Positions 37,987-45,838 of a stretch of DNA of 64,000 bases are shown here, piece after piece. The stretch is taken from contig MHTL01000014.1 in the NCBI GenBank assembly GCA_001823095.1, positions 1,881 through 65,880 of the forward strand, read 5' to 3'. The notes below the pieces were generated by a model. It was not told the origin of the DNA. It saw only the letters and a program-made list of their open reading frames with translations, and searched no databases. A program made the position numbers and the translations under genes. The stretch is from Candidatus Vogelbacteria bacterium RIFOXYD1_FULL_51_18 (GTDB lineage Bacteria; Patescibacteriota; Minisyncoccia; Phycocordibacterales; UBA9988). Within the stretch, counting starts at the first letter, position 1. Each line of letters starts with the position of its first letter.

Positions 37987-38661
37987 CTAACTCAAATCTT
38001 TCTTCCTTTCCTCAAATTCTTTTTTATCAATCTCACCTTTAGCATACCGTTTCTGCAAAATTTCAAGCGCGGATTTTTCGTGATTGTGCGTGCCGCGCGA
38101 TTGATTCGTAAGCCATTTGATAAGCGCGACAATACCCGCGATTATCAATACCCACCAGAGGATCATAAAAATCCAGCCGAACGAGCCAAAAGGCCCAGAT
38201 CCAAAATTCATCATACTCCCTCCCCACATCATATTCATCATCGGCATCCAGCCGCCGCTTATGGCCGGAAATGATGCTGATGTATCGCAACCAGAAAGAC
38301 GTTTACCCATGACGATGTGAATCTGCTCTTCGCCGTCTTCGCCATGCGCCTGAATCATCATGGCGTTCATGGCGGCATGGGACTCTCCAGCCATTTGTCC
38401 CATAAAATACTCGCCGAGAACTCCAAACTGCTCATCGCTTAAATTCTCGCAAGCGATTTCTTTTGCTTGCAGTGTATCCCAAAGCCCTTTGCCTTCCTGT
38501 TCTTCACGGGCGGTATGTTCAACGACCTCGTTCCAATCAACTGTCGTATTGGAGAGATTACCCATCCCTTCAACACCGTTCAGGACAGGCATTTGAGCAT
38601 CTACCGAACCGTCAACAAGTATTGACCCAAAAATGAAAGCCGTGATTAAAAGTTTTTTCAT
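37987..38661 (-). CDS. secreted/membrane Met-rich protein with C-terminal SHOCT domain
   Basis: Signal peptide MKKLLITAFIFGSILV, a Met-rich segment GGWMPMMNMMWGGSMMNFG, a TM helix, and a C-terminal LEILQKRYAKGEIDKKEFEERKKDL SHOCT-like motif. Confidence 0.6.
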   Translation of the reverse strand: MKKLLITAFIFGSILVDGSVDAQMPVLNGVEGMGNLSNTTVDWNEVVEHTAREEQEGKGLWDTLQAKEIACENLSDEQFGVLGEYFMGQMAGESHAAMNAMMIQAHGEDGEEQIHIVMGKRLSGCDTSASFPAISGGWMPMMNMMWGGSMMNFGSGPFGSFGWIFMILWWVLIIAGIVALIKWLTNQSRGTHNHEKSALEILQKRYAKGEIDKKEFEERKKDLS

Positions 38662-38683
38662 ACAGTCGTATTTTAGCTTATTC

Positions 38684-39067
38684 TTATTGTTTAGAAAAGA
38701 CGAAATACGAAAGATACCCAAGGAGTCCGAGTTGAATCGTAGGCGTTAAGCCGACGGAGAGAATTGGGATTATGGGCATATACTCATTATACGCCCATCT
38801 TCCCGTGTTGAGAGCGTACAATTCAATACATATCGAAATCAAGACGCCAATCGGAATAATGAGCCAGCTTCTTTTTCTGAGACTGGCGACCAGTACAAAG
38901 GGTAGAGTCAATAGGATAATAATAATCGCATCAGCGATAGAAGCTCGCAACAGAATAGTCTCGGTTATCTCTCCGCCCATATAAACGATATAAAAATAGG
39001 AATGTAAATTTTCCCAAATTAGATTAAGAAAAAATGACAAAATAAAAATTAAAGATACTTTTTTCAT
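38684..39067 (-). CDS. hypothetical multi-TM membrane protein (very AT-rich gene)
   Basis: Four predicted hydrophobic helices; composition is markedly AT-richer than the backbone. Confidence 0.5.
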   Translation of the reverse strand: MKKVSLIFILSFFLNLIWENLHSYFYIVYMGGEITETILLRASIADAIIIILLTLPFVLVASLRKRSWLIIPIGVLISICIELYALNTGRWAYNEYMPIIPILSVGLTPTIQLGLLGYLSYFVFSKQ

Positions 39068-39201
39068 ACTGTTTATTTTTCCGCATGAGCGGTATGCTCC
39101 TTAAAACGTTTCCTAAGATCGGTGGTTGATCCAAAATAAAGTTGCGAATCTTTTTTACTTTTCAAAATACATGTGTAGTTCATAGAATTTGGTGTGGGGG
39201 T

Positions 39202-40104
39202 TTATTTTTGTTCCCAGGGACTATTCAAAGACTCTTCTCCAATCTTCCACACGCCCTTTTCCAAGAAAGCCTCGATGGTCTGGCGGGTGGCCTTGTTGAT
39301 AAGATTTGAGTGAGAAAATTTGTTGCTCTTTGCATAGTCGGAAAGCAGAACAATCTTTTTGCTCTCTAAATATGCCAAACGCTTGTGATAACTATTGGTA
39401 AGAGCCTTACCAATAATCTCTTCCATAATTTCGGTTGCCCCCTTTTCATCAAACTCCCTGAAAGCGTCGTAGTATTTCTTCTGGTCGATAAACTTGATGT
39501 TTATCGGCACAAAGCCTTCCCGTATGAGGAGATAGTTGTTGATGACGCGCCCAATGCGGCCATTCCCGTCCATGAATGGGTGGAGATATTCAAACGCCAG
39601 ATGAAGCCGCGCGATGCGCTTGATGATATTTTCATGACTTGTCGCATTGTATTCCGCAAACATCTTCTCAAGACTCCCGTTGATTTCTTTTGGAGCAGGA
39701 GCAATATAACTGCCGACACGAACATACTCGTCATCCTTGCGAAATCGTCCGGCAACTTCATCACGAATATTTGACAGGAGCATCTTGTGGAGTGACAAGA
39801 TAACCTCAAAGCCGAGCTCCTGCTCTTTAGCCCGCTTGTTTATGTACGACACGACTCGGGCAAGATTTTTTGCTTCGAATATTTCTCGTTCAGAAATATA
39901 CCGGTCCAGATCAATCTGGAGAAGTATCTTTTCCGTTTCCTCAAGAGAGAGAGTACTGTTCTCGATAGCGTTTGAGTTGTATACCTGATCTGCGATTTCC
40001 GCTTCGCTTATAAGCTTAATAAGCGCATCTTTTCCGATGGCCGCTTTGTAATACCTTTCCCTAAACAGATTGATTTTATTAAGTGCTCTAGCTGTTTTCG
40101 CCAT
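39202..40104 (-). CDS. Fic/DOC-family protein (putative AMPylase)
   Basis: Canonical Fic motif HPFMDGNGRIGR. Confidence 0.9.
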   Translation of the reverse strand: MAKTARALNKINLFRERYYKAAIGKDALIKLISEAEIADQVYNSNAIENSTLSLEETEKILLQIDLDRYISEREIFEAKNLARVVSYINKRAKEQELGFEVILSLHKMLLSNIRDEVAGRFRKDDEYVRVGSYIAPAPKEINGSLEKMFAEYNATSHENIIKRIARLHLAFEYLHPFMDGNGRIGRVINNYLLIREGFVPINIKFIDQKKYYDAFREFDEKGATEIMEEIIGKALTNSYHKRLAYLESKKIVLLSDYAKSNKFSHSNLINKATRQTIEAFLEKGVWKIGEESLNSPWEQK

Positions 40105-40121
40105 ACGGATTAAGTATAGTC

Positions 40122-40157
40122 TTTTTCACGACTTTGTCAACTCTAATCGTGAAAAAC
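40122..40157. repeat. split variant of the TCACGA/TCGTGA hairpin: tttttcacga-[16 nt]-tcgtgaaaaa, 18 nt upstream of the Fic start
   Basis: 10-nt perfect inverted arms containing the TCACGA half-sites, separated by ctttgtcaactctaa; a further TTTCACGATTTTG half-site lies at about 40177. Confidence 0.5.
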
Positions 40158-40582
40158 TCTCTTTTTTCTTATACTTTCACGATTTTGGACATATAGCCCC
40201 TCTGCCTTTCAGCAGTATAACAAAAAGTGTCTCATATTGGCTCCGGAGTTAAAACCTTCACAAACCCCGAAGGAAAAACAAGTTCCCTACGAGGCATGCT
40301 TTTGAAATTATTCTGCCAAATCTGATACACAAATCCAAAAAGCAAAATCTGAAGTGATGCGCCCCGCCACTATTTTTCTGGGACAAAGGAGGCGGGGCTG
40401 GGCGACCTGTCCGCCGTAGCTTTAGCAAAGGCGGAGCGAACCCTCTCGTCTTCAAAATCCGAGTTCGTATCTAGTTTATTGGCTCCCACTACTGAACGAG
40501 TTTAGAACAATAGATTGGAAGGGTATAAAGCAAGAACTTGAGCTTAGCGGTATTATGACGCTACTGGGCCAGAGAGGTTTTG

Positions 40583-41026
40583 TTAGCGTCTAACCTTATC
40601 GGTTTCAAGATGGTTTTCTGTTATGGCCACAACATAGAAAGTTCGTTCTGGCTCAATATCAAAATAGAATATCCGTGCTCTTTGTTGTAGTTTTATTTCC
40701 TTGAGTTCAATGCCTTCAGCAATGCCCCTGTATAGCTTTTTGTATTCGCTATCGTATCTCATAGGTATTCGGTCCACATAGTTTCTTTGAAAATCGGCCT
40801 CGGGGCGGATTTTTGTTCCTATGGTTTTGAGAGTTTCTATGGCCCTTTTTGCTTTGTTGCCGCCGAGCTCTGAAATCTCGCACATTCTTTCGTTGTATTT
40901 TGCAAAAGAGATTACATAAGGAATTGCCTCAGGTGCTTCTGTGTCCTGAGGCAATTCTTGAGCGATTTGAGAAAGTTTGTCTATTTCATCACTTGGCTCT
41001 GTGGCTTGTTTTGGAATGTCGGTCAT
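40583..41026 (-). CDS. uncharacterised 147-aa protein, candidate toxin partner of the Panacea-domain antitoxin (weak RelE/HigB-like C-terminus)
   Basis: ATGA overlap with the upstream Panacea gene. C-terminal YRGIAEGIELKEIKLQQRARIFYFDIEPERTFYVVAITENH resembles the RelE/ParE/HigB (Gp49-like) beta-strand core; acidic N-terminal 50 aa. Confidence 0.5.
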   Translation of the reverse strand: MTDIPKQATEPSDEIDKLSQIAQELPQDTEAPEAIPYVISFAKYNERMCEISELGGNKAKRAIETLKTIGTKIRPEADFQRNYVDRIPMRYDSEYKKLYRGIAEGIELKEIKLQQRARIFYFDIEPERTFYVVAITENHLETDKVRR

Positions 41027-41526
41027 TTGTGCTTCTTGGCCTCTTCCAATTTTTCAGAGTAGTAATTTTTCATTGATTCAAGGGATATTTCGTTTTCTGA
41101 GTTTTCATAATGCTGAAGGCCCTTTCGTGCTTCTCGCCACGGCTCTTCTGAGTGCGTGAGCATTTCCAAATAACCAGCATCAAGTTTTCCGTATGCGTTC
41201 CATACGGTATCAATAAGTTCTTTTGACTTGCCCGAAATGTTAAGCGTGTCTGATTTTATCTCTTCCTGTATCGGTTCAAATCCGAACTTTTTATATAGCA
41301 CATACAAACTGCGAACTGCTGGCCCGTGCACCCACGCTTCAATCGGCTCACTGAAGAGTTTTTTGTTATTCAATACCAAAGACCAGGCCTGTGCGTAATA
41401 GACCAGTTTTTGGAGTTTTTTATTCGTTATCGGCTCTTTTTCTTGGCTGGCGAGATATAAGAAATATCGGCCTACATCCCGTGCCTTTAAGGTTTTTTGA
41501 GAGTGTAAGGCCATAGGTATTTTCAT
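41023..41526 (-). CDS. Panacea-domain (DUF4065, SocA/PanA-like) antitoxin
   Basis: NKKLQKLVYYAQAWSLVLNNKKLFSEPIEAWVHGPAVRSLYVLY matches the Panacea core, and the N-terminal DVGRYFLYL matches the family leader. Confidence 0.75.
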   Translation of the reverse strand: MKIPMALHSQKTLKARDVGRYFLYLASQEKEPITNKKLQKLVYYAQAWSLVLNNKKLFSEPIEAWVHGPAVRSLYVLYKKFGFEPIQEEIKSDTLNISGKSKELIDTVWNAYGKLDAGYLEMLTHSEEPWREARKGLQHYENSENEISLESMKNYYSEKLEEAKKHK

Positions 41527-41537
41527 AGTAGCAATTC

Positions 41538-41555
41538 TGTAAACAGTTGTAAACA
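41538..41555 (-). promoter_or_regulatory. direct-repeat operator-like element TGTTTACA-ac-TGTTTACA (minus-strand sense) upstream of the Panacea gene
   Basis: Two 8-mers at 10-bp spacing, 12 nt upstream of the proposed ATG, in an AT-rich 110-bp gap after abiEii. Confidence 0.4.
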
Positions 41556-41638
41556 GACAGGAAGATGTTGATATTTCTGGCCGAGCGTGTAAACTAAAGT
41601 AAAGTATGAAAGAAGTAATGATGGATAGACTCATAATT

Positions 41639-42931
41639 TTATTTTAACAAGTCATCAAAGTCGTGTCTGATTAGATCTTCTTTCCGAAGAACGATCTGTT
41701 CCTTCTGATTCAGGTTGTCAGCGGATACACGGATAAGTTTTGTCATCAGGGTGTCACCAACAAGTTCATAGTTAATTTTCTTCAAATAGGCCTCGATTTT
41801 TTCGTAAAATAGAGAGGCGTATTCTTTCTGCTTTTTCTCTGATGTCGGTCTACTGCTAGAACCATTTGCTGAAAACTCGATGCTGTCACTCACTACGTTG
41901 TTGATTGGAAACGAAACCTCGATGTCTTTGAAAAGAAACCAGTACTCGCTCAAGTTATATATAATGCGCACGTGGTCGCCCTCTTTCGTGCTGTACTCAA
42001 AAATGAAAGAGAACACATCAGTCCGGAAGTCCTCGAACACTCGCACTCTTTCGTATTTTGATACGGTTCTGATTTTATATTTATCGCGTAGCTGAAAGAA
42101 AGTGTCGCGCCAGTTCGCAAGCCAGTTAGTGACGAAACGAGGGTCAAGAAAGAGCGGTGAGAGGTCATTTTTGAGATTTTCTTCGCTTACGTTGTTCATT
42201 TTTACCGCAAGTTTTGTGAACAGTGTCCGATAATCTTTTGCTTCTTCCACATTCTTTGCTTTGAGATAGTCAAGGTCGGGTACGATTTTCTTACTCATGT
42301 ACCAAAGTAAATCGTAGATGTCGCGCCCTTTTTCTTCATACACCGCCTCGCCGACGCCACGCGTTCCGCGAAGGAAAATTGCAGCGATTTTGCTCGCCAT
42401 AAGAGAAGAGAGGTTGTATGTCCGGATTACGAATGACAACTGTCCATGATTCTGCGGTATTCTTTCCGTAACAACGCCGCCGGGCGGTGCAAACTGATTA
42501 CAATCAACTTTCACATGAATCCATTCGGAAGCGTAGCCCTCAATCAAACTGCCAGCTCGGAATTTAAGCGTTATGCCTCGATTGTTCGTGATAGAGATTT
42601 TCAAAAATTCCGCGTCAACTCCATAGACTTTTGCGAAATGCTTTTCTGCCTCTTCTTTGAATTCGTTGAGAAAGTCGCTGTCAACCTTGTGGCTTACCTC
42701 AAAATCCAAATCAACGGACATTCGGTCGAGGTCATAGCAGATGCGAAGCGCTGAGCCGCCATACATTATCCATTTGTTATATTCCGGATGATGATAAGTG
42801 AAATCGAGGACATAGAACTGCAACTCCTCTTTAAGAACGTTGAGGCGCGTCTCGGGATCGGAAATGCTAACGCCATAGGTCGAAAGGCCATCAAGTTTGC
42901 TTTTCAGGACTGTTAGTATCTGATCACTCAT
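41639..42931 (-). CDS. abiEii: AbiEii/AbiGii-family nucleotidyltransferase toxin (DUF1814)
   Basis: IMYGGSALRICYDLDRMSVDLDFEVS matches the AbiEii NTase motif (GGTAL...R.SEDLDF); 430 aa. Confidence 0.85.
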   Translation of the reverse strand: MSDQILTVLKSKLDGLSTYGVSISDPETRLNVLKEELQFYVLDFTYHHPEYNKWIMYGGSALRICYDLDRMSVDLDFEVSHKVDSDFLNEFKEEAEKHFAKVYGVDAEFLKISITNNRGITLKFRAGSLIEGYASEWIHVKVDCNQFAPPGGVVTERIPQNHGQLSFVIRTYNLSSLMASKIAAIFLRGTRGVGEAVYEEKGRDIYDLLWYMSKKIVPDLDYLKAKNVEEAKDYRTLFTKLAVKMNNVSEENLKNDLSPLFLDPRFVTNWLANWRDTFFQLRDKYKIRTVSKYERVRVFEDFRTDVFSFIFEYSTKEGDHVRIIYNLSEYWFLFKDIEVSFPINNVVSDSIEFSANGSSSRPTSEKKQKEYASLFYEKIEAYLKKINYELVGDTLMTKLIRVSADNLNQKEQIVLRKEDLIRHDFDDLLK

Positions 42932-43541
42932 GGAGATATGTTTTTACTTTTTCATAAAATTTCTTCCGCTCCTCCTCGTCCATCTCATCAATATCTATCC
43001 GCAATTCTTTTACCATCTTTGTAATATCTTCAAACCGGACGCTTCGAAACTGATGCGTTCTGAAGTACAGCAAGTCGAATAGTGCTTTTGATGGAGAAGC
43101 AATAAAAAAATCAAATTTTCCTTTCACAAGAGAGTAATCCGAAAAGAGATTCTTATTGATTGACTGGTATGAAAAAGTCCCCGCCTTCGTTTCATAATCC
43201 CGTGTGATTTTCGGTGTAACCGACGTGATAGAGCGTATCGCTTCAGTGGCGAGATTATAATACTGGAGCGCAGTCCACGAGCTTACGTAGGAAGGCGTAC
43301 GGAGAATGTTTGCAAGGTAGAAAGAATACGAGATATCGCTTTTATTATCTGCAAAAAAATCGGCGGTAATATACAAGCCATTTTTCAGCGGCAAAATCTC
43401 TTTGCGCTTCAAAAAACGGCTGATGTATGTATTTACCGTACTATTTTTCAGCCCCAACTGACTACCAAGCTGGTATACTGTACTTTTGGTGAAATGGGGC
43501 AAACTATTAAGCTGTTCCAACAGATTTTTCTTGCTTTTCAT
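42924..43541 (-). CDS. abiEi: AbiEi-family antitoxin/transcriptional regulator (wHTH N-domain)
   Basis: N-terminal wHTH (TVYQLGSQLGLKNSTVNTYISRFLKRKEILPLKNGLYI); 8-nt overlap with abiEii. Confidence 0.8.
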   Translation of the reverse strand: MKSKKNLLEQLNSLPHFTKSTVYQLGSQLGLKNSTVNTYISRFLKRKEILPLKNGLYITADFFADNKSDISYSFYLANILRTPSYVSSWTALQYYNLATEAIRSITSVTPKITRDYETKAGTFSYQSINKNLFSDYSLVKGKFDFFIASPSKALFDLLYFRTHQFRSVRFEDITKMVKELRIDIDEMDEEERKKFYEKVKTYLHE

Positions 43542-44061
43542 AACTATGACAATAGTGTATCATATATGAAATGAGCAGTCAAAAGCTCATATAGCCCGCC
43601 CCGCCTTTTTGCCACCCCATTCCAATTCAAATCCCCCCCGCGAAAAAAATAAGAATGGAGAAGGGGCAAAAGGCGAGGGCGGAACGCCGAGGCTCTGCGA
43701 GGCGTTGGGCGGAATGGTTAGAGTCACCACAGAGTCCGAGCGTACGATTCAATCAGAAGCCACCACGCACGCGGAGCGTGCGATTAGTCATCAGTCGGAT
43801 TATTGCGAAAATATGTTCGAACTTTTTCTAACAAACACAGCAAACTTAGATACCCTTCGGAATTTTTGGAACCGAGGGGCGCGCTTCGCGCGCTGTATGG
43901 AAAATCGGCGAGGAGGGCAAAGGATTTTTTCGGAGTGGCAAAAAGCGCGCTTCGCGCGCAGGTGGGGGTTCCATGATGAGTACATCATTCAAAACAAAGT
44001 TTTGCGAGCCGACGGGCGGCAATTTCAAAGCGATTGAGAGCATAGCTTTCCCTTTTTCTAT

Positions 44062-45435
44062 ATGAATAAATTCTTTCTCTACGCGCGAAAATCTACCGAC
44101 GAGCCGGACAGGCAGATTTTGTCTATCGAAGCGCAGATACACGAGTTGAAAGAATTTGCAGAGCGAGAGCATTTGGAGATCGTGGACACTTTTATCGAGT
44201 CGCAAACGGCGAAGGAGCCGGGGCGACCTATTTTTAATCAAATGCTCTCGCTTATTGAAAAAGGGAAAGCCAATGGAGTTGTGGCGTGGCACCCAGATCG
44301 TCTCGCGCGCAACAGCGTTGATGGTGGGCGTATTATCTACCTTATTGACATCGCTAAGGTGGTTGCGCTCAAATTTCCGACTTTTTGGTTTGAACCCACG
44401 CCACAAGGCAAATTTATGCTCTCAATCGCTTTCGGGCAGAGCAAATACTATGTTGATAATCTTTCAGAGAATGTGAAGCGCGGTTTGCGACAGAAAGTGC
44501 GCCGTGGCGAGCAAAGCGGACAAGCGCCGACCGGATATTTGAATGATAAAGCGAATCGTGTGATCGTACCCGATCCGGCGCGCTTTAAGTTTGTCCGCGA
44601 ATTGTTCGAAGCATACGCCACGGGTTCACATTCTCTGAAAGAAACTGGGAATTTGCTCTCTGCCCGAGGCTTGGTTAGTCGGAACGGCAATGTGCTTACC
44701 ATTTCGAATATTCAAATGATTTTGCGTAATCCGTTTTACTACGGGGCGTTTAAGTTCAATGGCGAGGAGTATCAAGGTAAGCACAAGCCAGCGATAACAA
44801 AGAAACTTTTTGATCAGTGCCAAGCGGTGATGGCGCGAAAAGCGCACCCCACTAAGCGAGGCGAGCAAAAGCATATTCTTCGCGGAGTTTTTTCGTGCGC
44901 AGAGTGCGGTTGCGGTATCACAAGCGAAGTGCAGAAAGGTCATGTGTATTATCGGTGCACGAAAAAGAAAGGTATCTGCGCACAACCCTATGTCCGCGAA
45001 GAGTTGCTCGCCTCGCAAATCACCGAGTATCTGCAAAAAGTTTCTTTGTCTTCGGCGTGGGCAAATGAGATGCTTGCTCTCTTGGAGAAGGAGCAAGCAG
45101 AAACTACCCACGCCGATGCCGATTTCGTTCAAAATCTAAAGCTCAAAATTAAGGAGTGCGAGGAGAAGCTTGACCGGCTTCTTGACGCGCATCTTGAGCA
45201 AACGCTATCGAGCGAAGAATATGTCGCCAAGAAGCGCGTTCTCCTCGACTCTAAAATTGATTTTGAGCAGAAGTTGAAGGATTTTGAGCGAAACGGCAAT
45301 CATTGGCTCGAACCGGCCCGACAATTCGTTTTAGCGGCTCAACAAGCCAAAATTATCGCTTTGCAAGAAAATCCCGTCGCGGGACGGGATTTTCTCAAAA
45401 GAATTGGCTCGAACCACGTCGACAATTCGTTTTAG
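44062..45435 (+). CDS. large serine recombinase (resolvase catalytic domain + recombinase domain + zinc ribbon); C-terminus apparently frameshifted by a 101-bp tandem duplication
   Basis: Catalytic YARKSTDEPDRQILSIEAQ (Ser nucleophile) and a zinc ribbon CAECGCG...YYRC. The alternate frame 45303-45644 re-encodes the same peptide and continues to the tRNA. Confidence 0.9.
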   Translation: MNKFFLYARKSTDEPDRQILSIEAQIHELKEFAEREHLEIVDTFIESQTAKEPGRPIFNQMLSLIEKGKANGVVAWHPDRLARNSVDGGRIIYLIDIAKVVALKFPTFWFEPTPQGKFMLSIAFGQSKYYVDNLSENVKRGLRQKVRRGEQSGQAPTGYLNDKANRVIVPDPARFKFVRELFEAYATGSHSLKETGNLLSARGLVSRNGNVLTISNIQMILRNPFYYGAFKFNGEEYQGKHKPAITKKLFDQCQAVMARKAHPTKRGEQKHILRGVFSCAECGCGITSEVQKGHVYYRCTKKKGICAQPYVREELLASQITEYLQKVSLSSAWANEMLALLEKEQAETTHADADFVQNLKLKIKECEEKLDRLLDAHLEQTLSSEEYVAKKRVLLDSKIDFEQKLKDFERNGNHWLEPARQFVLAAQQAKIIALQENPVAGRDFLKRIGSNHVDNSF

Positions 45436-45520
45436 CGGCTCAACAAGCCAAAATTATCGCTTTGCAAGAAAATCCCGTCGCGGGACGGGATTTTCTCAAA
45501 AGAATTGGCTCGAACCACGT
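45302..45520. repeat. 101-bp tandem direct repeat, 2 full copies plus a 17-nt third copy, each starting ATTGGCTCGAACC
   Basis: Units at 45302-45402 and 45403-45503 are identical apart from a 6-nt patch (ggcccg vs acgtcg); partial unit at 45504-45520. Confidence 0.9.
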
Positions 45521-45629
45521 TTTGCGCTCGCAAGCGATTTGCTTTGAACCTAAAAAGTCGTGGAAAATTCTTGCCGATTTGCCCGCCGAGGGGCGAAGCC
45601 CCGAGGCGGAGAACTCGTATCATCCTATT

Positions 45630-45705
45630 TGGCTCCGCGGCTAGGGCTCGAACCTAGGACATCCTCGTTAACAGCGAGGCGCTCTACCAACTGAGCTACC
45701 GCGGA
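45630..45705 (-). tRNA. tRNA-Asn (anticodon GTT), CCA encoded
   Basis: Reverse complement reads TCCGCGG-TA-GCTC-AGTTGGT-AGAGC-G-CCTCG-CTGTTAA-CGAGG-ATGTC-CTAGG-TTCGAGC-CCTAG-CCGCGGA-G-CCA, a clean cloverleaf. Confidence 0.85.
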
Positions 45706-45756
45706 ATATATTTTTCCGCGGTAGCTCAGTACTGAGCCCTGCCTGTCGGCAGGCAG
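45690..45756. repeat. inverted copy of the first 16 nt of tRNA-Asn (TCCGCGGTAGCTCAGT) 9 nt beyond the tRNA 5' end, followed by a ctgcctg/caggcag hairpin
   Basis: 45690-45705 (tRNA 5' end, minus) and 45715-45730 (plus) are exact reverse complements. Confidence 0.7.
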
Positions 45757-45838
45757 ATACCGCAGAATATCGTTCTTAAAGAACCGAACTAAATGGTATC
45801 AAATTTCTCTAATTCGCGCGAATAAGCGAATAGTATAT

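What the first reader, a model, noticed from the sequence alone, without database searches (positions are those of the whole stretch)
45302..45644. 101-bp tandem duplication frameshifts the serine recombinase; the original reading frame runs into the tRNA
Units at 45302-45402 and 45403-45503 are near-identical, and a 17-nt third copy follows. Because 101 is not divisible by 3, the recombinase frame hits a stop at 45435, inside copy 2. The +1 frame (ORF 45303-45644) re-encodes the identical peptide (WLEP.RQFVLAAQQAKIIALQENPVAGRDFLKRIGSNHV) and continues for 45 more codons, ending 15 nt inside the 3' end of tRNA-Asn. The ancestral recombinase was therefore about 70 aa longer and overlapped its tRNA target. 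Either the duplication inactivated or trimmed it, or it is an assembly artefact of a repeat. Each unit starts with ATTGGCTCGAACC, and GGCTCGAACC is also the T-arm segment of the adjacent tRNA (gggctcgaacctagg). That is suggestive of att-core-like sequence being reiterated.
Basis: seen in the sequence. Interest (0 to 1): 0.65.

Follow-up and report, generated by a model that had tools for sequence, protein, structure and literature searches.

The report
Extra 101-bp copy in recombinase gene
One metagenome scaffold carries a perfect extra copy of a 101-bp module that frameshifts a serine recombinase gene. All other assemblies that span the site have one copy, so the repeat is probably an assembly error, but it sits inside a very regular and apparently undescribed tRNA-targeting recombinase architecture.

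Summary
The repeat is real in the given sequence. Positions 45319-45419 and 45420-45520 are 100% identical, and the copy frameshifts a large serine recombinase (457 aa). Removing one copy restores a 493-aa ORF that ends 15 nt inside tRNA-Asn and aligns end to end with homologues.

The duplication is private to this scaffold (Ca. Vogelbacteria RIFOXYD1_FULL_51_18, IDBA-UD). The exact 493-aa protein is on 14 contigs and the 457-aa form on one. Two assemblies with no real mismatch to the window on either side have one copy. The junction 31-mer has no hit in metagenome contigs. I favour a local assembly or repair error (0.6) over a recent private mutation (0.3).

The context is the interesting part. 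In 70 of 80 related loci the 101-bp unit lies between two copies of an invariant 9-nt motif, GGYTCGAAC. The motif resembles the tRNA T-loop and is fixed even at synonymous positions. Sequence modules switch at both copies.

Of 61 assessable loci, 53 converge on a tRNA 3' end (a further locus, L076, abuts a tmRNA). Long inverted arms, mostly near-identical, bracket the gene. The motif sits exactly 5 bp further from the arm end on the element flank than on the tRNA flank. That is the attP/attB rule of serine integrases.

The parts
44062..45435 (+). Truncated recombinase ORF as it stands in the window (457 aa = OHA60391.1). It has Resolvase, Recombinase and Zn_ribbon_recom domains.
45319..45419 (+). 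First perfect copy of the 101-bp unit
   Evidence: 101 of 101 identity at lag 101
45420..45520 (+). Second perfect copy. Deleting it restores the 493-aa ORF found in all other assemblies.
45405..45644 (+). Displaced native C-terminal coding region (+1 frame): WLEPRRQF...IGSNHV followed by the 40-aa tail. The stop TAG lies 15 nt inside the tRNA.
45305..45313 (+). S1: first copy of the family-invariant motif GGCTCGAAC (encodes W-L-E). A module switch point.
45406..45414 (+). S2: second motif copy (encodes G-S-N), 101 nt from S1. In relatives the inverted arm starts inside it, at TC|GA.
45507..45515 (+). Third motif copy, created by the duplication
45366..45395 (.). 30-nt palindrome inside the unit (AGAAAATCCCGTCGCGGGACGGGATTTTCT), repeated at 45467-45496. 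It covaries across the family and is terminator-like on the minus strand.
45521..45637 (+). Right arm (Asn type): the 40-aa tail coding region running to the boundary O, a few nt inside the tRNA 3' end (TGGCTCCG)
45630..45705 (-). tRNA-Asn(GTT). Its T-loop motif GGCTCGAAC is at 45645-45653.
43838..43971 (-). Left inverted arm. It is of the tRNA-Gln type: 91% identical to the reverse complement of the 3' arm of L091/P0002, but only about half of aligned positions match the window's own right arm.
43972..44005 (.). 34-nt double-hairpin insert that splits the inverted motif (GGGGGTTC | insert | GAGCCGAC)
43815..43822 (.). T-loop-like motif GTTCGAAC in the element flank, 16 nt from the arm end (attP-type spacing)

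Best explanation
The native gene is a single-copy, 493-aa large serine recombinase. Its last codons read antisense into the 3' end of tRNA-Asn.

The 101-bp unit is the interval between two copies (S1, S2) of the family's 9-bp T-loop-like recognition motif, GGYTCGAAC. Those copies delimit a cassette that is exchanged between related elements.

The extra copy in this window is most likely not biological. I read it as a local join or repair error in one IDBA-UD scaffold, at a point where co-occurring elements share the cassette but differ on both sides and where other assemblies break.

Shown: the native state, the privacy of the duplication, the motif pair and the module switches. Inferred: the artefact origin.
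For: **Privacy of the duplication**
- The 457-aa product is on exactly 1 contig (RIFOXYD1_FULL_51_18, 66,760 bp). The exact 493-aa product is on 14 contigs.
- Sixteen contigs show one copy continuously through S1 and S2. They are L081 and L083, seven of the 15 contigs carrying the shared 34-mer, and L122-125, L127, L128 and L130. Each of the 15 carries the 34-mer once. The other eight start 44-101 nt upstream of the junction position or are diverged upstream, so they cannot by themselves exclude a second copy.
- L123 and L124 have no real mismatch to the window on either side yet carry one copy. Their only four mismatches are the GGCC/ACGT positions where copy 2 aligns to site 1.
- The junction-specific 31-mer has 0 hits in the metagenome contigs.

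**Form of the repeat**
- The copies are 100% identical.
- The junction has no microhomology and lies 4 nt outside the 13-nt repeat. Slippage or exchange within the repeat would leave GGCC in the middle copy, not ACGT.

**The site is an assembly break point**
- L084, which is 100% identical over 8.4 kb, ends at 45410 inside S2.
- Six of the 15 contigs start inside the unit, one of them exactly at its first base.

**The pipeline is known to make such errors**
- The source study used IDBA-UD (maxk 100) followed by automated Velvet repair of scaffold errors.
- The same laboratory reports that IDBA-UD is prone to local errors, to duplicated sequence at scaffold joins and to wrong repeat numbers.
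- Two other MAGs (metagenome-assembled genomes) from the same laboratory (the GW2011 set) show 35-nt and 62-nt deletions that start at one shared point about 110 nt downstream.
Against: - The period equals the biological S1-S2 spacing of 101 nt. That is exactly what an in-register biological misalignment would give.
- The window contains no N run and no other such duplication.
- De Bruijn assemblers need read support for each k-mer, so an artefact requires a later joining or repair step that I cannot document for this scaffold.
- Four raw IDBA-UD scaffolds from other samples that span the site are normal (L083, L122, L125, L130).
- Reads were not available.
Confidence: 0.6

Rival explanations
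1. The duplication is genuine, very recent and private to one strain. An in-register misalignment of the two motif-bearing sites during replication or unequal exchange added one cassette. This truncated the recombinase after its coiled coil and left a decaying, immobilised unit.
For: - The period is exactly the S1-S2 spacing.
- The unit is already a hybrid with mismatched arms: a Gln-type left arm and an Asn-type right arm, joined at S1. So it is plausibly degenerating.
- Other frameshifted and deleted variants of the same gene exist in the population.
- L084, of identical haplotype, stops inside S2.
Against: - The middle copy carries ACGT, not GGCC. The junction is therefore outside the 13-nt homology and has no microhomology.
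- Assemblies with no real mismatch to the window (L123, L124) have one copy.
- The junction has 0 hits elsewhere.
- The two copies show no divergence at all.
Confidence: 0.3
2. The recombinase itself uses S1 and S2 as crossover sites. It adds or removes the 101-bp cassette as a programmed on/off frame switch of its own C-terminus.
For: - Modules switch exactly at S1 and S2.
- The inverted arms and the double-hairpin insert begin at the centre of the motif, TC|GA.
- The motif is conserved at synonymous sites.
Against: - The duplication junction lies 8-9 nt from the TC|GA point. The two sites share no dinucleotide there, so it is not the product expected of a serine recombinase.
- None of the 80 genome loci and none of the other contigs examined has three copies, or one copy with a frameshift.
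- Sites 101 bp apart are very close for synapsis (established knowledge).
- The +5 bp geometry suggests that the motif is a binding motif, not a crossover core.
Confidence: 0.05
3. One reading: repeated integration at the tRNA reiterated a tRNA-derived att core (GGCTCGAACC) inside the gene.
For: - The motif resembles the tRNA T-loop, and in this window it is identical to the adjacent T-arm over 10 nt.
Against: - Both ancestral copies code for residues conserved throughout the family: the WLE motif (W and L invariant, E nearly so) and the invariant GSN.
- In most loci the neighbouring T-arm shares only TCGAAC.
- By inspection the flanks of the motif copies lack the complementary bases a T-arm stem would need.
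- The window holds no displaced tRNA fragment.
Confidence: 0.03

Closest known systems
Large serine integrases (Listeria A118/LI, Bxb1, phiC31, SPbeta SprA)
   Same: - The domain order is the same: Resolvase, Recombinase, Zn-ribbon, then a long coiled coil.
- SprA is the best solved relative (E = 2.8e-10).
- A motif of about 9 bp sits 5 bp further from the site centre on the element flank than on the host flank. LI integrase shows the same pattern: positions 16-24 in attP and 11-19 in attB.
   Different: - The target is the 3' end of tRNA or tmRNA genes.
- The gene's 3' end overlaps the tRNA.
- Two extra motif copies lie inside the ORF.
- Inverted arms of 75-219 nt bracket the gene.
- The family is almost absent from viral contigs (2 close relatives in IMG/VR).
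- It scores below the cut-offs of all named NCBIfam subfamilies.
- The C-terminal 85 aa cannot be aligned to SprA.
Genomic islands in tRNA/tmRNA genes made by tyrosine integrases (Islander/TIGER class)
   Same: - Integration is at the 3' part of a tRNA gene, and the element restores the gene's end.
- The integrase gene lies at the tRNA-proximal end.
- The same tRNA carries alternative islands in this population.
   Different: - The enzyme is a serine recombinase. Mageeney et al. 2020 state that t(m)RNA use by serine integrases had not been reported and found it in only 14 of 297 cases.
- Only about 6 nt of tRNA identity is carried by the element.
- No displaced tRNA fragment was found in the window.
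SSV1-type archaeal integrases (attP inside the int ORF)
   Same: Recombination-site sequence related to a tRNA is embedded in the recombinase's own coding region (recalled from memory, not tested here).
   Different: - SSV1-type enzymes are tyrosine recombinases, and integration splits their gene.
- Here the ORF stays intact and merely ends inside the tRNA.
Hin/Gin-type DNA invertase switches
   Same: - Inverted repeats bracket a segment that is found in both orientations relative to its flanks.
   Different: - The repeats are 75-219 nt, not 26 bp.
- The recombinase gene itself is the bracketed segment.
- The enzyme is a large, not a small, serine recombinase.
- Flipping was not observed within one population.
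Local assembly errors in IDBA-UD scaffolds (Chen et al. 2020)
   Same: - The repeat is a perfect duplicated stretch at a join, in a region of strain heterogeneity.
- It is absent from other assemblies.
   Different: - No Ns flank it.
- Its length equals a biological spacing.

Membership tests
Large serine recombinase (serine integrase) | N-terminal resolvase catalytic domain with a conserved serine | tested here: met
   PF00239 matches with E = 2e-23 over residues 5-150. R9, K10, S11 and T12 are invariant in the alignment.
Large serine recombinase (serine integrase) | Recombinase domain plus zinc-ribbon domain | tested here: met
   PF07508 matches with E = 4e-15 and PF13408 with E = 5e-8. The cysteines are invariant.
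Large serine recombinase (serine integrase) | Coiled-coil motif after the zinc ribbon | tested here: met
   The AlphaFold2 model has helices at 333-380 and 386-436.
Large serine recombinase (serine integrase) | attP and attB half-sites carrying one motif, shifted 5 bp toward the centre in attB | tested here: met
   YYCGAAC starts at +9/10/11 on the tRNA flank and at +14/15/16 on the element flank. The difference is exactly 5 bp in 38 of 40 loci. The rule comes from PMC3783163. Only the right half-sites show the motif.
Large serine recombinase (serine integrase) | Catalyses attP x attB recombination; a recombination directionality factor (RDF) is needed for excision | not testable with these tools
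   This needs biochemistry or genetics.
Temperate-phage integrase | Lies in a prophage with phage structural and replication genes | tested here: not met
   The neighbours are AbiEii, SocA/Panacea, Fic and SHOCT proteins. Only 2 close relatives occur among 2.9 million viral contigs.
tRNA-gene genomic island (Islander definition) | A displaced tRNA fragment as a direct repeat at the far end of the island | tested here: not met
   The window has no 11-mer match, and no match with up to 3 mismatches, to the tRNA 3' part.
tRNA-gene genomic island (Islander definition) | A tyrosine integrase | tested here: not met
   The enzyme has serine recombinase domains.
Slipped-strand or microhomology-mediated tandem duplication | The junction falls within the short direct repeat | tested here: not met
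   The junction is 4 nt beyond the 13-nt repeat, and the middle copy has ACGT, not GGCC.
Assembly artefact (unmerged or misrepaired join) | Absent from independent assemblies of the same haplotype | tested here: met
   L123 and L124 have no real mismatch to the window on either side and carry one copy. The junction has 0 hits.
Assembly artefact (unmerged or misrepaired join) | No read spans the junction | not testable with these tools
   Reads were not available.
DNA invertase switch | Both orientations of the bracketed segment occur in one population | tested here: inconclusive
   Both orientations occur across different genomes (L007, L024, L026, L017 rec1), but not within one population. 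The window's two arms are of different types.

The most novel reading that the evidence does not exclude
S1 and S2 are active sites of this recombinase. The enzyme swaps, adds or removes the cassette that encodes its own C-terminus and the adjoining att arm. This would retarget the unit between tRNA genes, and the window would have captured one such in-register event. The broader architecture would then define a new class of self-rearranging integration modules in Patescibacteria. That architecture comprises the T-loop read as the zinc-ribbon motif, the ORF ending inside the tRNA, and a gene that can flip between long inverted arms.
Probability: 0.12. Interest if true: 0.85.

Novelty: new variant of a known kind. 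Interest (0 to 1): 0.6.

Why it matters
The duplication by itself matters little. It should be flagged as a probable error in OHA60391.1, and the 493-aa form should be used.

The context matters more. Serine integrases were reported not to be known for using tRNA genes (PMC7192596). Here a family with thousands of members across Patescibacteria does so systematically.

The geometry explains how. The near-universal T-loop sequence serves as the zinc-ribbon recognition motif, 5 bp closer to the crossover than on the element side. That gives directly testable attP and attB predictions for many enzymes and a route to integrases with predictable, conserved targets.

It also explains two practical nuisances. 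Assemblies of these genomes tend to break at these loci. Database proteins of this family have erratic C-termini, because those tails are translated antisense tRNA.

Tried and rejected
- **Displaced tRNA fragment or second att copy in the window.** None was found with 11-mers, with up to 3 mismatches, or with a short-word BLAST of the x-H flank.
- **tRNA-like folds at S1 or S2.** ARAGORN and Rfam find only the real tRNA. By inspection the flanks lack T-stem complementarity.
- **C/T covariation of the two motif copies as independent evidence.** The two copies always agree (43 C/C, 27 T/T, 0 mixed). But the state changes only once on a neighbour-joining tree, so this is one event.
- **Motif identity with the neighbouring T-arm as a family rule.** Rejected, because most loci share only TCGAAC.
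- **Slippage, unequal exchange within the 13-nt repeat, or a circle re-insertion as the origin.** All predict GGCC in the middle copy, whereas ACGT is observed.
- **A crossover at the motif centre as the origin of the junction.** Rejected for the same reason.
- **Prophage origin.** Rejected.
- **Named recombinase subfamilies (CcrB, XisF, CcrA/C).** All score far below their cut-offs.
- **Exact-protein look-ups of the 457-aa product and of P0001.** Neither is in the contig index.
- **Fold search of the model.** Not run, because the C-terminal tail has pLDDT below 50.
- **Terminator scan.** It flags the unit palindrome, but the number of hits in the region is not above chance.
Full report
**1. 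The observation**

Tandem Repeats Finder reports a 101-nt period with 2.2 copies at 45302-45520. No comparable repeat occurs elsewhere in the window.

Base by base, 45319-45419 equals 45420-45520 exactly. A 13-nt match, ATTGGCTCGAACC, precedes each copy. The only differences are four adjacent bases: GGCC at 45315-18 and ACGT at 45416-19. The structure is therefore R-GGCC-body | R-ACGT-body | R-ACGT-downstream. It has a blunt junction at 45419|45420.

ARAGORN and Rfam place tRNA-Asn(GTT) at 45630-45705 on the minus strand. The recombinase ORF 44062-45435 stops inside copy 2 (457 aa). The +1 frame 45303-45644 carries the rest and stops 15 nt inside the tRNA.

Removing one copy gives a 493-aa ORF. 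The truncated product shares 453 residues with it, adds DNSF and lacks a 40-aa tail.

**2. What the gene is**

Pfam finds Resolvase, Recombinase and Zn_ribbon_recom domains. The best solved relative is SPbeta SprA, with E = 2.8e-10 over residues 7-408. NCBIfam hits to CcrB, XisF and CcrA/C are far below their cut-offs.

An AlphaFold2 model shows the usual domains and a two-helix coiled coil at 333-380 and 386-436. WLEP lies in the second helix. Everything after about residue 451 has pLDDT below 50.

The reconstructed 493-aa protein aligns end to end with homologues. Of the 8000 candidates scored, 7986 had E <= 1e-20, and typical lengths are 493-515 aa.

**3. Where the window comes from, and who else has the repeat**

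The 457-aa product is OHA60391.1 of Candidatus Vogelbacteria bacterium RIFOXYD1_FULL_51_18. It is found on one contig of 66,760 bp. The exact 493-aa product (KKW22695.1 and others) is on 14 contigs.

Sixteen independent contigs show one copy continuously through S1 and S2:
- L081 and L083
- seven of the 15 metagenome contigs that hold the shared 34-mer
- seven further contigs spanning recombinase, tRNA and the next gene: L122-125, L127, L128 and L130

Each of the 15 contigs carries the 34-mer only once, and all continue into the downstream TTTGC... sequence. The other eight start 44-101 nt upstream of where the junction would be, or are diverged upstream. They therefore cannot by themselves exclude a second copy.

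L123 and L124 have no real mismatch to the window on either side of the site, yet they are single copy. Their four mismatches are the GGCC/ACGT positions where copy 2 aligns to site 1. The junction-specific 31-mer has no hit in the metagenome contigs.

**4. Artefact or mutation?**

Several points favour an artefact.
- The site is an assembly break point. L084, which is 100% identical over 8.4 kb, ends at 45410 inside the second motif. Six of the 15 contigs start inside the unit, one of them exactly at its first base.
- The source study used IDBA-UD (maxk 100) and an automated Velvet repair of scaffold errors. The same laboratory describes duplicated sequence at IDBA-UD scaffold joins and wrong repeat numbers.
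- Two other MAGs (metagenome-assembled genomes) of the same laboratory's GW2011 set carry 35-nt and 62-nt deletions that start at the same base, window 45529.
- Slippage or exchange inside the 13-nt repeat would leave GGCC in the middle copy. ACGT is observed.
- Merging an end ...R-ACGT onto R-GGCC (13 of 17 matches) while keeping the left version reproduces the junction exactly. This last point is inference.

Several points count against an artefact.
- The period equals a biological spacing (see section 5).
- There are no Ns.
- I have no reads.

I put the artefact at 0.6 and a genuine private duplication at 0.3.

**5. The unit is a bounded cassette**

In 70 of 80 related loci from reference genomes, GG[C/T]TCGAAC occurs twice, exactly 101 nt apart. 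The first copy encodes W-L-E (R-F-E in one clade). The second encodes G-S-N, in a different frame.

Synonymous positions are fixed in 36 of 36 or 35 of 36 of the loci where the protein motif was located (the exception, L071, has T at the same position in both copies). Background usage in the same genes is much lower:

| Codon in motif | Frequency in motif | Background in the same genes |
|---|---|---|
| Ser TCG | 36/36 | 17% |
| Leu CTC | 35/36 | 17% |
| Gly GGC | 35/36 | 37% |
| Asn AAC | 36/36 | 35% |

Third-codon positions inside the motif carry 2.0 bits, against a mean of 0.72 bits elsewhere. In a 67-sequence alignment, the eight invariant bases of each motif copy are the only invariant columns. 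The C/T variant always agrees between the two copies, but it changed only once on the tree.

Modules switch at both copies.
- P0002 is 98-100% identical to the window protein over residues 1-414 and 40-51% after that.
- P0017 is 61% identical over residues 131-414 and 95% over 415-453.
- P0026, P0039 and P0089 are 85-92% identical in 415-453 but 40-56% after S2.
- At the DNA level, relatives whose gene bodies are 50-78% identical are 92-100% identical between S1 and S2.

The unit also contains a 30-nt palindrome supported by covariation. It shows 79% pairing and 120 double-change cells, against 52.7 +/- 7.3 in shuffles (0 of 500). It is terminator-like on the minus strand, that is, for read-through from the tRNA.

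**6. Family architecture**

Of 61 loci with enough sequence after S2, 53 have a convergent tRNA: Ser 28, Gln 15, Asn 5, Trp 2, and Leu, Ala and His one each. One further locus, L076, lies next to a tmRNA. The ORF overlaps the tRNA by 9-273 nt. The conserved tryptophan near the C-terminus is TGG, the antisense of CCA.

In 58 of 62 testable loci, an inverted repeat of 25-219 nt (75-219 nt where neither arm is cut by a contig end) brackets the gene. It is at least 97% identical in 43 loci and 100% identical in 28.
- The right arm most often runs from inside S2 (start at +4 or +5 in 36 of 58, that is, at TC|GA) to 6-8 nt inside the tRNA (40 of the 47 loci where that end could be measured).
- The left arm is its mirror image upstream of the gene.
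- In the 45 loci where the left copy of the motif could be examined, it is usually split by a 32-34-nt insert made of two small hairpins with GAA or AAA loops. Their stems differ between loci but keep pairing.

Contigs often end at these arms, which explains the break pattern. The unit occurs in both orientations relative to its flanks (L007, L024, L026, L017 rec1).

**7. The att geometry**

Beyond the end of arm identity, a T-loop-like YYCGAAC starts at +11, +10 or +9 on the tRNA flank. It starts at +16, +15 or +14 on the opposite, conserved element flank. The difference is exactly 5 bp in 38 of 40 loci. The other two loci (L040, L067) have the element-type flank on both sides and no tRNA.

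For Listeria LI integrase, a 9-bp zinc-ribbon motif lies at positions 16-24 in attP and 11-19 in attB (PMC3783163). My inferences follow.
- arm|element flank is attP.
- arm|tRNA is attR.
- The crossover lies about 6 nt inside the tRNA 3' end.
- The enzyme reads the T-loop as its zinc-ribbon motif, which would explain the many tRNA targets.
- S1 and S2 are two further copies of that motif inside the ORF. Their role is unexplained.

In the window, the element-side motif is at 43815-22, 16 nt from the arm end at 43838. The T-loop copy is at 45645-53.

**8. The window's unit is a hybrid**

Its left arm (43838-43971) matches the reverse complement of the tRNA-Gln-type arm of L091 at 91%. The gene body up to S1 is 97.7% identical to L091. 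From S1 onwards the sequence is of the Asn type. In a pairwise alignment the two arms match at only about half of the aligned positions.

Other contigs share the same breakpoints.
- L086 diverges from the window exactly at 43971 and carries an uninterrupted motif there.
- L127 carries the same unit with a different flank left of 43838.
- The same tRNA-Asn 3' end carries other islands in L082 and L129.

**9. Novelty**

Full-text searches found no description of this family or architecture. Mageeney et al. 2020 state that t(m)RNA use by a serine integrase had not been reported, and they call for experimental proof.

Only 2 close relatives occur in IMG/VR, against at least 588 matching stretches in reference genomes, nearly all Patescibacteria.

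**10. Verdict**

The duplication itself is probably not biological. The sequence it duplicates is a real, conserved and unexplained part of an apparently undescribed variant of serine-integrase systems.

Noticed in passing
window 45710-45770: A 61-nt insertion lies next to the tRNA 5' end. It is absent in L082 and present in L083 and L129. It is flanked by GGAATAT / AGAATAT and creates a perfect 17-bp inverted repeat with the tRNA 5' end (45690-45706 versus 45714-45730). A second hairpin, CTGCCTGTCGGCAG, follows.
   Followed up: partly
window about 38000-45630: A low-GC island (0.41-0.49 against about 0.55) carries AbiEi-like/AbiEii, SocA-Panacea, Fic and SHOCT-membrane genes. In L082 the segment 41632-45628 is replaced by an HTH / N6_N4 methyltransferase / RmuC / DprA-like cassette. 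In L129 a DPPF-motif methyltransferase abuts the same tRNA end.
   Followed up: partly
window 43594-43682; also L012, L017, L049, L073: A conserved GC-rich hairpin with a C-rich loop (GGGCGGGCAAAAA...TTTTTGCCCGCCC type) lies outside the left arm. In L017 it forms part of a 289-nt inverted repeat between two recombinase units that flank 1.65 kb of cargo.
   Followed up: partly
L126 and L131 (window 45529-45563 and 45529-45590): Two GW2011 MAGs (GWF2_52_12 and GWB1_53_43) have 35-nt and 62-nt deletions in the right arm. Both start at the same base, and both frameshift the recombinase. They may be real or pipeline errors.
   Followed up: partly
window 45584-45612 and arms of L012, L049: The arms contain a GC-rich element with a GAA-loop hairpin and a direct repeat, GCCGAGGC(N7)GCCGAGGC. 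It is conserved between Asn-type and Ser-type arms.
   Followed up: no
L046, L070: The recombinase unit is flanked by complete tRNA-Ser genes on both sides in inverted orientation. They are identical GGA copies in L046, and GCT and GGA in L070.
   Followed up: no
L073:3990-4340: A 27-nt direct repeat of the S2 site (AAAAAATATCGGCTCGAACTTTATTTT) lies 237 nt downstream and brackets the tail and the GC hairpin. There is no downstream tRNA, and a tRNA-Trp lies upstream.
   Followed up: no
protein database entries of the family: Annotated C-termini such as ...DSNLRPTPYTYP or ...DSNQGDDFQRVASYH are translations of the antisense tRNA T-arm. Protein lengths of 493-554 aa vary mainly with where a stop happens to fall inside the tRNA.
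   Followed up: partly
window 40299-40398 versus L082:4696-4795: A 100-nt segment, 95% identical, is present in inverted orientation in the alternative cassette of L082.
   Followed up: no
S1/S2 versus arm end (window 45302-45314, 45630-45637): In Asn-type and Gln-type units the S sites (ATTGGCTCGAAC) also share TTGGCT with the arm end / tRNA 3' end (ATTTGGCTCC). This does not hold in the Ser clade (TGGTTC versus TGGCGG).
   Followed up: no
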